NCBI RefSeq assembly: GCF_057098645.1
Contig: NZ_CM169472.1
Strand: one strand, 5' to 3'
DNA: 64,000 bases
This document shows positions 12,001 to 15,000 of this stretch, piece by piece. Each line of letters starts with the position of its first letter. Within the stretch, counting starts at the first letter, position 1. A program made the position numbers.

Positions 12001-15000
12001 AACGCCTGGCGACTGCATTGATTACGACCGGATCAGAGATGACATCATGCAGGACGCGGAGAAATTTAATATCAGGCTGGTGGGCTTTGATACGTGGAAC
12101 GCCACGCATCTCAGAACGCAATTACAGGGGGCAGGTTTTGAGGTGGAGCCGTTCCCGCAAACCTACCTCAGATTCAGTCCGGCGGCGAAATCGTTCGAAG
12201 TTTTTGTTAACCGCAGGGTGATTGTGCATCGTGGCGATCCGGTGTTGTCCTGGTCGATGAGTAACGTCGTGATGCAGAGTGACGCGAACGCCAATATCAA
12301 GCCGAACAAGAAAAAATCACCGAACAAGATAGACCCGAGCGTGGCGGCGCTGATGGCGTTTGGTACATTCCAGGCAGAGCATGAGGATTTTGCTTTTGAT
12401 ATAAGCGACAGCCACCGCCAGAAACTGGAAGAATTTAGCGGGGTGTAATGAGGTCAGCAGCATGACAGAAGCCGAAATAACGGGATTAATCCGCCGCGTT
12501 GCCGGAATCAGCCAGCAGGCTGACGAACAGGCCACGCAGCCGGACAGCGTGACAGCCGAAAACTATGCGCGTGTTGTTGCTGAGGTGATGCGCCGTGATG
12601 GTATAGAACTTAATGGCGTGGATATGCGCAACATACGAACCAGAGTTCTTTAGTTGCTGGCCTACCGTCGCCGCGTGGAGATGTATCGGGAGAAGGAGAA
12701 AATAACGTACCACTGGAAGAAGCCGGAGCGGTTGCGGCGGTAACTGGTTGATATTCCCGACGGCCCAAAAATGGGTTGGCTACACCCCTCACAACTACGA
12801 CATTTTCGCAGTTTAATTAATGGTCAGCTTAATCGCTAACCCGCTGATATTTTAGGAAACCTCAATTTGAGGAAGTCGGCGCGGTAACTTGCTGAACTTT
12901 AAGCAAAGCGCAAAATTGCGCTTGCTGAATAATCATTATGATTACGCAGATGATTAAGGAATGACCGAAGGCGGAAATTCGCCTGTGGTTAATGGGGGAG
13001 TTGCAGATCTGCAACTCGACCATGAAACTACGGAAACTACCCGTAGTTTGGGTAGTAAGAGTAACACCCAGATTTTGGGGCTTACTCGTGATACCCAAAT
13101 TTGGGGTATCGGTGGCAACCATAACGACTTTCGTTACGGTTGATGCTTTTACCCCATTGGGGGAAAGGTATTACGATAATCATAACACCTACCGAACAGG
13201 TAAAGCCCACCAGCCTGATTAACGTTTAACCGGAAAAAAATTCCGGTAGGTGGGGATCCCCATATAGACATTAACGCCCCTCATGAATTGGTGTGCTTCC
13301 CCCTGGAAAGATGATCCGCCTGTATATTTCTTGTGTCTATTTGTTCCACGTTGTTTCATACAGTGCACCGAACGGTGTAGTCACTGGTGTAGTCATTTTG
13401 CGATTTTTGGCACTTTTTGTGGTGTTAATTATTTAATTAAATCAATGTGTTATGCGAAATAAGTTATATATAACAGCAATAAATAATGCGAGAATAAACG
13501 GCACGATGATCTCGGCGGCAAAACGGATACCGCAGAGAATAATGACCAGCATTCCCAACATAATGACGATTTTTAGGCCATTGAGCGTGATGATCGGCTT
13601 TGCCATGCTTGTCCCCGTTTTTTCTTCCTTTGCTAATAATAATGTCTTTTTCGCTCCGTCATCATAACGAAAATCAAACCGCTCAGGTAAAGAAGTGAAA
13701 ATATTTTGAGTTAATTCTTAAGCTATGATACAAATCAGGCGTGTTCAACTACCGAGGACAATTATCATCCGCGATGACGAGAAGCAACACTGCGGATAAT
13801 TGTAATATTATGGACAATTTGTTCAGGACGTTATTTTCTACATTTACCCATCTTCGTACCTCATCCACTATCTTGCTCGTAGGTGAGCAGCACTGGCGCA
13901 ACGCGCTTTAGTCCTTTCTTCTGCCAAAGCTTGCGCTAAGCGCGGGGCTTGACCACTTTACTTTGGTTTCGCTGAATTAAGCGAAAATTAAAATAATTCT
14001 CTTGCAGGAGAAGGACAATGTATATTTATTGGATTTTATTAGGTCTGGCTATTGCTACAGAAATTACCGGTACGCTGTCCATGAAATGGGCGAGCGTCAG
14101 TGAGGGAAATGGCGGTTTTATTTTAATGCTGGTGATGATTTCTCTGTCGTATATATTTCTCTCTTTCGCCGTTAAAAAAATCGCCTTAGGCGTAGCTTAT
14201 GCGCTGTGGGAAGGTATCGGTATTTTATTTATTACCTTGTTTAGCGTTTTGTTATTCGACGAAAGTTTATCGCTGATGAAAATTGCCGGGTTAACCACCC
14301 TGGTCGCCGGGATTGTGTTGATAAAATCAGGTACCCGTAAAGCGCGTAAACCTGAACTGGAGGTGAACCATGGCACAGTTTGAATGGGTTCACGCCGCCT
14401 GGCTGGCATTGGCAATCGTGCTGGAAATCGTTGCTAACGTCTTTTTGAAATTTTCTGACGGCTTTCGTCGCAAAATATTTGGCTTGCTCTCCCTGGCGGC
14501 GGTGCTGGCTGCCTTTAGTGCGCTTTCTCAGGCCGTTAAAGGGATCGACTTGTCTGTCGCTTATGCATTGTGGGGCGGGTTTGGTATTGCCGCCACGTTA
14601 GCCGCAGGTTGGATCTTGTTTGGTCAACGGTTAAATCGTAAAGGCTGGATTGGCCTGGTCTTGCTGTTGGCTGGAATGATCATGGTGAAACTTGCCTGAT
14701 GAAGACGCTGCCCGCGCTGTCGGGCAGCGTTTGAACATTATTTTTGCGACAGTTGATCCAGCTTGTCGCGAAAACCGGTAACAGAAATGGCCCGGTTATC
14801 GGCGCGCCAGCGATCTTTCGCGGCAGGAGCCGAACTTTGCACCCCAATTAATTGCCAGCCGTCATCGGTATGCAACATCAGAGGCGAACCGCTGTCACCC
14901 GGCAAGGTATCGCACTGATGTGACATCACCGACGTTTGCGCCCAGCCAGTCACTTCACAGTTTTGATGACTGTACAACGTATCGAGATGATCTTCAGGGT

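What the first reader, a model, noticed from the sequence alone, without database searches (positions are those of the whole stretch)
13331..13360. Third copy of the phased repeat motif about 110 bp from the island right end
TTGTgtctat / TTGTTccacg / TTGTTtcata at 10-bp phasing lies close to the junction with tqsA. Near an att site such repeats could be binding sites for a recombination directionality factor or integrase arm domain, rather than, or as well as, transcriptional sites.
Basis: inference. Interest (0 to 1): 0.45.

Follow-up and report, generated by a model that had tools for sequence, protein, structure and literature searches.

The report
AlpA-type repeat array in satellite attachment arm
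The three phased TTGT repeats are real and conserved, and they form part of the recombination arm at the right end of a phage-satellite island (cf-PICI), most likely as binding sites for the island's small AlpA excisionase/activator, while the integrase arm domain binds a tandem 12-mer immediately next to them.

Summary
TTGTGTCTAT/TTGTTCCACG/TTGTTTCATA lies at 13331-13360, 110 bp from the crossover block ATAACAGCA (13470-13478) where an EcCIEDL933-like cf-PICI is inserted in tqsA. The phased pattern occurs 5 times in the window against 0.03 expected, always inside the island.

The array belongs to a conserved module. It runs: TTGT units, a fixed 23-nt offset, a tandem 12-mer (GGTGTAGTCAC x2, 13373-13396), an IHF consensus, then the core. 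The same module sits upstream of int on the other arm. A circular metagenome contig shows the assembled attP.

Across related islands the tandem 12-mer changes (GTCAC, GTTAA, TGTGTGGTCAG). It changes together on both arms. It also changes with residues 1-42 of Int, which lie in the arm-binding domain. The TTGT units do not change. So the 12-mers are the Int arm sites and the TTGT array is not.

TTGT arrays also lie between int and alpA and before the late operon. AlpA is the only regulator shared by all islands that carry arrays, and its model has an excisionase fold. It is published as required for excision without activating Pint in EcCICFT073, which carries an identical array.

Best reading: AlpA recombination-directionality sites, as for Apl, Cox and TorI. 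Binding itself is untested. This is a new member of a known kind, of moderate interest.

The parts
13331..13360 (+). The finding: three phased TTGT units (TTGTGTCTAT, TTGTTCCACG, TTGTTTCATA). Proposed AlpA (RDF) binding array of the right att arm.
   Evidence: Identical or near-identical in EcCICFT073 and many IMG/VR islands. TTGT positions are fixed at -43/-33/-23 from the tandem 12-mer in 22 unique arm modules.
13361..13370 (+). Degenerate fourth unit (CAGTGCACCG). The left arm has TTGTGCAACG at the equivalent position.
   Evidence: Alignment of left and right arms.
13373..13396 (+). Tandem 12-mer cGGTGTAGTCAC / tGGTGTAGTCAT. Proposed Int arm-type sites (P4-type doubled arm repeat).
   Evidence: Variants GTCAC and GTTAA co-vary between arms and with Int residues 1-42 in the Arm-DNA-bind_3 domain. 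P4 has annotated tandem 12-bp arm repeats in the same layout.
13440..13452 (+). Perfect IHF consensus AATCAATGTGTTA (WATCAANNNNTTR), preceded by an A/T tract, between the arm sites and the core.
   Evidence: Read from the sequence. A perfect match lies at the same offset (+65/66 from the 12-mer) in islands at two different cores, and 1-mismatch versions occur in others. IHF binding is inferred.
13470..13478 (.). Crossover identity block ATAACAGCA (att core) at the island/tqsA junction.
   Evidence: attB/attL/attR alignment. The same block joins the right and left island ends in the circular contig L050.
13479..13606 (-). 5' fragment of tqsA (start codon at 13606), cut off by the insertion and not restored by island sequence.
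   Evidence: RefSeq annotates the homologous fragment as a partial 'pheromone autoinducer 2 transporter'.
564..607 (-). Five-unit TTGT array between the int stop codon and alpA, inverted relative to alpA.
   Evidence: Five or six units in nearly all related loci and in EcCICFT073.
821..847 (-). Weak two-unit array (TTGTGTC / TTGTTCC type) about 35-60 bp upstream of the alpA start codon.
   Evidence: TTGTGTC x2 lies at the same place in EcCICFT073.
5867..5896 (+). Three-unit array (TTGTTCGTGG, TTGTTCCACG, TTGTTCACTG) just after a terminator-like hairpin (5826-5843) and upstream of the capsid/packaging operon.
   Evidence: Conserved with the upstream TTTTGTAAATTATTTGTTCG context in islands whose AlpA is only 64-69% identical.
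880..1068 (+). alpA (62 aa, Pfam Phage_AlpA), the proposed binder of the TTGT arrays.
   Evidence: Pfam match at 5.4e-17. The AF2 model has pLDDT 86.5 and best matches solved excisionases: GIsul2 Xis 8c3t at TM 0.83, RdfS, TorI and Pukovnik Xis.
1..515 (+). 3' part of the island tyrosine integrase gene. Its 5' part and the left att arm lie outside the window.
   Evidence: 97% identical to residues 240-409 of the L001 Int.

Best explanation
The repeats are the right-arm (attR, or P-arm of attP) copy of a phased array of binding sites for AlpA, the island's 62-aa winged-helix protein.

Proposed mechanism, inferred by analogy with Xis, Cox, Apl and TorI:
- AlpA monomers bind head-to-tail and cooperatively to three or four TTGT(T) units spaced one helical turn apart, and bend the DNA.
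- The array lies 23 nt from a tandem pair of 12-bp Int arm-type sites.
- A matching array-plus-12-mer module lies on the left arm, upstream of int.
- When a helper phage switches alpA on, AlpA filaments on the two arms help the Int arm domains load. An IHF bend between the right arm sites and the core assists. Together they assemble the excisive attL x attR complex.
- The same AlpA-array recognition is used at the alpA region and before the late operon for transcription control.

Shown here: the array exists, is non-random, is conserved at fixed geometry on both arms across at least four integration sites, and is distinct from the Int arm sites.

Inferred: AlpA is the binder, and the role of this copy is recombination directionality.
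For: 1. Non-random occurrence confined to the island.
2. A circular contig, L050, shows attP directly: array, then tandem 12-mer, then core, then array, then tandem 12-mer, then the int start.
3. In 22 unique arm modules the three TTGT units keep a fixed register to the 12-mers, while the sequence between and around them diverges.
4. The 12-mer-to-core distances are 96-98 bp on the right and 135-137 bp on the left (90 and 142 in a third family). The sum is a constant 232-233 bp over four different cores.
5. The 12-mer variants co-vary between arms. They also co-vary with 14 Int residues, all within aa 1-42 of the Arm-DNA-bind_3 domain. The TTGT units are unchanged. The array therefore belongs to a different protein.
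6. AlpA is the only protein of the window island found in all eight compared islands (the incomplete int was not among the queries; the primase matches seven of the eight, mostly over only part of its length). PerC is absent from islands that carry arrays. No second Xis-like protein is found.
7. The AlpA model matches solved excisionases.
8. EcCICFT073 has an identical right-arm array and a 93% identical AlpA. In that island AlpA activates PalpA but not Pint, and AlpA over-expression alone gives int-dependent excision (PMC6092414). alpA is also required for excision of EcCIMP1 (PMC11773190).
9. RDF sites are typically direct repeats one helical turn apart, need at least 3 operators, and can serve both att and promoters (PMC7498355; PMC2951348; PMC11963761).
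10. An island with a 50% identical AlpA has no such arrays.
Against: - No binding data exist for AlpA on any DNA in the papers I could search.
- There is no positive covariation. The TTGT core is the same in all AlpA clades that carry arrays (64-98% identity), so the AlpA assignment rests on elimination and analogy.
- RDF sites on both arms, with the right-arm array distal to the arm sites, differ from the lambda layout.
- AlpA could drive excision indirectly through another induced gene.
- The arrays near alpA are inverted relative to the gene, which no simple activator model explains.
- The left-arm array lies directly upstream of int, so a transcriptional role there is not excluded for islands other than EcCICFT073.
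Confidence: 0.62

Rival explanations
1. The array is an AlpA-dependent promoter or upstream activating element. It would drive transcription rightward across attR or, after circularisation, across attP into int. Its role would be transcriptional, not architectural.
For: The same array type precedes the late operon immediately after a terminator-like hairpin. AlpA is a published activator of PalpA. In the circle both arm arrays point toward int. RdfS both binds attP and stimulates intS transcription.
Against: No sigma-70-like promoter is found downstream of the arm arrays in attR or in the assembled attP. The position that holds a -10-like TATTTT after the late-operon array is occupied on the arms by the Int 12-mers. 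AlpA did not activate Pint in EcCICFT073. In the integrated state, rightward transcription would run antisense into a dead tqsA fragment.
Confidence: 0.15
2. The TTGT units are themselves integrase arm-type sites.
For: They lie in both att arms at a fixed distance from the core. The 12-mer core GTGTAG resembles the unit TTGTAG.
Against: Four variants of the neighbouring tandem 12-mer track the Int N-terminal arm-binding domain, while the TTGT units stay the same. TTGT arrays also occur at two internal sites with no 12-mers. P4 and HE-PICI attP sites have the tandem 12-mers without TTGT arrays.
Confidence: 0.05
3. A host protein binds the array. Candidates are response regulators that recognise direct repeats one helical turn apart, for example TorR, whose decameric tor box I recall from memory as CTGTTCATAT, or ArcA-like regulators. 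This would couple the island to host physiology.
For: The TGTTC core and 10-bp direct-repeat layout resemble the operators of OmpR/PhoB-family regulators. This is from memory and was not tested here.
Against: In this window the arrays occur only inside the island. They are absent from an island with a divergent AlpA. They occur at exactly the sites where AlpA genetics predicts action.
Confidence: 0.05
4. The right-arm copy is a functionless relic: a duplicate of the int-upstream region carried along with the needed Int 12-mers.
For: The left and right arm modules are about 75% identical over about 80 bp, which is consistent with an old duplication.
Against: The TTGT positions and their 23-nt offset to the 12-mers are kept in a third family, although the intervening bases have diverged. 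The 85-bp module is at least 90% conserved in 802 of 5,426 E. coli genomes.
Confidence: 0.07

Closest known systems
Phage 186 Apl and P2 Cox: dual-purpose RDF and transcriptional regulators
   Same: A small winged-helix protein whose sites are direct repeats 10-11 bp apart. At least three adjacent sites are needed. Arrays occur both at att and at promoters (PMC7498355).
   Different: Apl and Cox repress the early promoters, whereas AlpA is an activator. Here the arrays lie on both att arms, each at a fixed offset to a tandem Int arm site. Binding is not demonstrated here.
Satellite phage P4 attP (annotated arm sequence repeats) and P4 Vis
   Same: The integrase family has the same Arm-DNA-bind_3 N-domain. 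Tandem 12-bp arm repeats lie on both sides of the core, co-oriented, with one pair just upstream of int. The pairs sit 75 and 134 bp from the core centre, against 88.5 and 144.5 here. Vis is an AlpA homologue needed for excision (PMC6092414).
   Different: The P4 arm repeat is TGGGGGCA, not GTGTAGTCAC. No TTGT phased array flanks the P4 arm repeats.
HE-PICI attP doubled motif tgTGTATTGCa x2 (Tommasini et al. 2023, PMC10111431)
   Same: A doubled 12-bp-period motif 81 bp upstream and 132 bp downstream of the attP centre, co-oriented, in PICIs that carry int and alpA.
   Different: Those authors left open whether Int or AlpA binds the motif. Here covariation assigns the equivalent motif to the Int arm domain. 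HE-PICI arms have no strict TTGT array (in one island, L093, also no phased 4-mer run of any kind), and the AlpA of that island (L093) is only 50% identical.
KplE1 prophage attL (TorI RDF sites plus IntS arm sites overlapping PintS) and ICEMlSymR7A RdfS
   Same: RDF sites and Int arm-type sites are interleaved directly upstream of the integrase gene. The RDF also regulates transcription. The AlpA model resembles the TorI and RdfS structures.
   Different: TorI sites are reported on attL in two blocks. RdfS has no clear motif. Here a sharp TTGT consensus at exact 10-bp phase occurs on both arms.
Pseudomonas aeruginosa AlpA, a Q-like processive antiterminator
   Same: The name and an HTH that reads a promoter-proximal DNA element. 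It regulates positively past a terminator.
   Different: Pae AlpA is much larger: the residues that read its DNA element are numbered 128-142, and an N-terminal segment enters the RNA exit channel. One molecule binds a single GGGACG element between -35 and -10. The 62-aa PICI AlpA has neither feature, and its candidate sites are multi-unit arrays.

Membership tests
RDF (Xis/Cox/Apl/TorI-type) binding-site array | Direct repeats spaced about one helical turn apart, with at least 3 adjacent units | tested here: met
   Three exact 10-bp phased TTGT units plus a degenerate fourth. The criterion is taken from PMC7498355.
RDF (Xis/Cox/Apl/TorI-type) binding-site array | Located within the att recombination region, next to integrase arm-type sites | tested here: met
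   23 nt upstream of the tandem Int 12-mers and 110-143 bp from the core. The equivalent module lies on the other arm. attP is seen assembled in L050.
RDF (Xis/Cox/Apl/TorI-type) binding-site array | A cognate small winged-helix RDF protein is encoded by the element and required for excision | tested here: inconclusive
   AlpA is present, is assigned to Pfam Phage_AlpA, and has an excisionase-like model. The requirement for excision comes from papers on EcCICFT073 and EcCIMP1, not from this island.
RDF (Xis/Cox/Apl/TorI-type) binding-site array | Cooperative binding and bending by the RDF at these units, and stimulation of excision through them | not testable with these tools
   This needs EMSA or footprinting and excision assays with mutated units.
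Integrase arm-type sites (heterobivalent tyrosine recombinase) | The site sequence co-varies with the Int N-terminal arm-binding domain | tested here: not met
   The TTGT units are unchanged across the Int N-domain variants. The adjacent tandem 12-mers are what co-vary: all 14 discriminating residues lie in aa 1-42.
P4-type attP architecture | Tandem 12-bp arm repeats on both sides of the core, co-oriented, with the int-proximal pair just upstream of int | tested here: met
   Window 13373-13396 plus L001 1969-1992, compared with the annotated P4 repeats at 3942-3965 and 4151-4174.
cf-PICI / Gram-negative PICI | int, alpA and a primase co-oriented, plus capsid, protease, portal, HNH, TerS and TerL, with no tail or lysis genes | tested here: met
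   ORF map and RefSeq annotation of the homologous island, Pfam HNH and PerC, and the description of EcCIEDL933.
Pseudomonas AlpA-type antiterminator loading site (ABE) | A single GGGACG-like element between -35 and -10, a downstream -10-like pause element, and an AlpA with an N-terminal RNA-exit-channel segment | tested here: not met
   The PICI AlpA is 62 aa and consists of the HTH only. The sites are multi-unit arrays with no flanking promoter consensus.

The most novel reading that the evidence does not exclude
Both att arms carry the same composite module: an AlpA array at a fixed 23-nt offset from a tandem Int arm site. The two Int doublets are held a constant 232-233 bp apart. This could define an excisive complex unlike lambda's one-armed Xis arrangement. 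AlpA filaments on attL and attR might pair the two arms (RDF-mediated synapsis). Alternatively, after circularisation the right-arm array might form part of a junction-spanning control region for int. Either way, one small protein would read a single TTGT code to time transcription, excision and re-integration of a phage satellite.
Probability: 0.2. Interest if true: 0.6.

Novelty: new member of a known kind. Interest (0 to 1): 0.4.

Why it matters
AlpA is the master switch of Gram-negative PICIs and cf-PICIs, yet I found no description of its DNA sites. This analysis offers three things:
- A concrete candidate operator: TTGT(T) units at 10-bp phase, consensus about TTGTTCCACG.
- A map of five places where it occurs in one island type.
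- A clean separation from the integrase arm sites, which settles in silico a point left open for HE-PICIs (whether Int or AlpA binds the doubled motif).

It also gives a direct route to test whether AlpA is an excisionase as well as an activator. The module is present but unannotated in about 15% of complete E. coli genomes (802 of 5,426). It would help in delimiting PICI ends and in engineering PICI-based delivery vehicles. It does not reveal a new kind of mechanism.

Tried and rejected
- CP4-57 of K-12, the original AlpA element, has no 4-mer run at 10-11-bp phase between attL and alpA. Its AlpA is very different, so it was uninformative.
- My first guess at the EcCICFT073 coordinates returned a lambdoid prophage. 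The island was found in the next stretch.
- Sigma-70 promoter scans of the right arm, the int-alpA region, the late-operon leader and the assembled attP gave nothing above shuffle expectation near the arrays. A promoter role can therefore be neither shown nor excluded.
- Rfam found no RNA family anywhere in 1-14000.
- The + strand ORF 13283-13462 (59 aa) that overlaps the array was rejected as a gene. It is unannotated in RefSeq, and its upstream part is replaced in other arm variants.
- I looked for positive covariation between AlpA and the unit sequence. Islands with AlpA at 64-69% identity still use TTGTT, and the one island examined with a 50% identical AlpA has no arrays. Only a presence/absence association resulted.
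- The word-indexed protein search returned only 19 AlpA relatives.
- No paper mentions PDB 8C3T.
- PerC was rejected as the array binder because it is absent from islands that have arrays.

Full report
**Context**

The left 13.5 kb of the window is a phage satellite of the capsid-forming PICI type. Its genes, all on the + strand, are the 3' part of a tyrosine integrase (to 515), alpA (880-1068), a primase, PerC, and then capsid, protease, portal, HNH, TerS and TerL. This matches the published description of EcCIEDL933.

The island is inserted in tqsA. The 5' part of tqsA runs on the - strand from 13606 and is cut off by the insertion. The 3' part and the left junction lie outside the window. 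They are present in a near-identical island in strain 8479 (L001). Aligning empty K-12 tqsA with attL and attR gives a 9-bp identity block, ATAACAGCA, at window 13470-13478.

**The observation**

The three units TTGTGTCTAT, TTGTTCCACG and TTGTTTCATA are at 13331-13360 with exact 10-bp phasing. They end 110 bp before the core. The pattern TTGT-N6-TTGT-N6-TTGT occurs five times in 64 kb against 0.03 expected, and every match is in the island.

The other copies in the window are:
- a five-unit array on the - strand between int and alpA (564-607);
- a three-unit array before the late operon (5867-5896), just after a terminator-like hairpin;
- a weak two-unit copy at 821-847 on the - strand.

**What surrounds the array**

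Thirteen bases after a degenerate fourth unit lies a tandem 12-mer, cGGTGTAGTCAC tGGTGTAGTCAT (13373-13396). Next comes a perfect IHF consensus, AATCAATGTGTTA (13440-13452), and then the core.

In L001 the left arm carries the same arrangement in the same orientation. After the core come about 90 bp, then TTGTTCCAGC TTGTTTCACG TTGTAGCCCT TTGTGCAACG, then GGTGTAGTCAC x2, and 25 bp later the int start codon.

A metagenome contig, L050 (11,098 bp with a 119-bp terminal overlap), is a closed circle of such an island. It shows the predicted attP exactly: right end, ATAACAGCA, left end. Measured from the core centre, the right 12-mer pair is 88.5 bp upstream and the left pair is 144.5 bp downstream.

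**Which protein reads which element**

I collected 69 IMG/VR loci whose AlpA is 87-98% identical, the prototype PICI EcCICFT073, and a family whose AlpA is 64-69% identical.

The tandem 12-mer comes in variants: GTAGTCAC, GTAGTTAA, TGTGTGGTCAG and TGTGTAGTCAG. Each variant appears on both arms of the same island.

Among the 25 integrases for which the 12-mer type of at least one arm was known, the GTCAC and GTTAA groups are separated by 14 alignment columns with no shared residue. All 14 lie in residues 1-42, inside the Pfam Arm-DNA-bind_3 domain (residues 8-95). One integrase, in L004, has the GTCAC-type N-terminus joined to a body like that of the GTTAA group (93% identical to the reference Int, with residues 54-75 as in that group). 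So the association is with the N-terminal module, not with the lineage.

The GTTAA-type islands sit at three or more other cores. Nevertheless the geometry is kept:
- 12-mer to core on the right: 96-98 bp (90 in the third family);
- core to 12-mer on the left: 135-137 bp (142 in the third family);
- the sum is always 232-233 bp.

The tandem 12-mers are therefore the Int arm-type sites. Satellite phage P4 supports this. Its GenBank record annotates tandem 12-bp 'attP arm sequence repeats' in the same two-sided, co-oriented layout. HE-PICIs carry tgTGTATTGCa x2 at 81 and 132 bp from the attP centre, and their binding protein was left open (PMC10111431).

The TTGT units do not follow Int. In 22 unique arm modules they hold a fixed register (-43, -33 and -23 from the 12-mer start), whatever the 12-mer variant and although the bases between them diverge.

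**Why AlpA is the likely binder**

1. The same array type lies at two internal regulatory positions that lack 12-mers.
2. AlpA is the only protein of the window island found in all eight compared islands (the incomplete int was not queried; the primase matches seven of the eight, mostly in part). PerC, the other regulator, is missing from islands that have arrays. Pfam finds no second Xis-like protein.
3. The AlpA model (pLDDT 86.5) best matches solved excisionases: GIsul2 Xis (TM 0.83), RdfS, TorI and Pukovnik Xis.
4. EcCICFT073 carries an identical right-arm array and a 93% identical AlpA. In that island AlpA activates its own promoter but not Pint. AlpA over-expression alone produces excised circles that depend on int (PMC6092414). 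alpA is also needed for excision of EcCIMP1 and for induction of EcCIEDL933.
5. The layout is the one reported for recombination directionality factors. These use direct repeats one helical turn apart, need three or more operators, bind cooperatively with bending, and often have a second job at promoters (PMC7498355; KplE1 TorI; RdfS).
6. An HE-PICI whose AlpA is only 50% identical has no such arrays.

**Limits**

Nobody has shown AlpA binding to these units, at least in the papers I could search. The TTGT core is the same in every AlpA clade that has arrays, so there is no positive covariation. The AlpA assignment rests on elimination, fold, genetics and analogy.

The right-arm array lies distal to the arm sites and both arms carry arrays, which differs from the lambda layout. 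A promoter role for this copy cannot be excluded, although no promoter consensus follows it. On the arms, the Int sites occupy the position that holds a -10-like hexamer downstream of the late-operon array.

**Comparison and verdict**

The element works like the att-arm RDF arrays of 186, P2, lambda and KplE1, set in a P4-type attP. It is not an Int arm site. It is not a loading site of the Pseudomonas AlpA antiterminator type.

It is widespread: the 85-bp module occurs in 802 of 5,426 complete E. coli genomes and is unannotated. I rate it a new member of a known kind. It is useful to PICI biology and directly testable, but not surprising in mechanism.

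Noticed in passing
L050 1-330 and 10850-11098 (IMGVR_UViG_3300045988_152974): An 11,098-bp metagenome contig with a 119-bp terminal overlap is a closed circle of a related island. 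It carries the assembled attP (right end, ATAACAGCA, left end). This is direct evidence that these islands exist excised or packaged in nature.
   Followed up: yes
Int proteins of L001-L066 (aa 1-42); L004 in particular: The integrases are mosaic. The N-terminal 42 residues switch as a block together with the tandem 12-mer arm sites, independently of the rest of the protein and of the core (integration-site) specificity. L004 combines one N-module with a body like that of the other group.
   Followed up: yes
window 4675-4887: Direct repeats AAAAAGTGGGGAGTAAAA (three copies, 83-85 bp apart, each with further GTGGGGAG units) lie just downstream of the primase gene. They look like replication-origin iterons.
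   Followed up: no
window 12738-12899 and 12925-13156: Three copies of an 18-nt direct repeat (CGGTAACTGGTTGATATT type) are followed by a dense run of imperfect inverted repeats in the roughly 600-bp non-coding stretch before the att arm. EcCICFT073 has similar AACCCGTTGATATTTTCG repeats at its right end (L086 26650-26900). These may be the packaging (cos) region.
   Followed up: partly
L074 2310-2360; L078 880-926; L082 2765-2807; L084, L085 equivalent: In islands whose AlpA is 64-69% identical, a GC-rich hairpin followed by a T-run ends only a few bases before the alpA start codon. This looks like a terminator or attenuator gating alpA. The window island has no such hairpin there.
   Followed up: no
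window 13442-13606 (- strand): The insertion truncates tqsA after codon 45 and adds nine island-encoded codons before a stop. Unlike many integrating elements, this island does not restore its target gene, so carriers should lack the AI-2 exporter TqsA.
   Followed up: partly
window 13261-13270 / 13334-13343: A 10-nt inverted repeat (CATATAGACA / TGTCTATTTG, 63 nt apart) overlaps the first TTGT unit. It may be chance.
   Followed up: no
L086 15749-27210 (E. coli CFT073, NC_004431.1 1377749-1389210): The experimentally studied EcCICFT073 lies between roxA and phoQ with core GGACATATTT. It has the full set of arm modules and a six-unit int-alpA array, but no strict three-unit array before its capsid-like genes.
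   Followed up: partly
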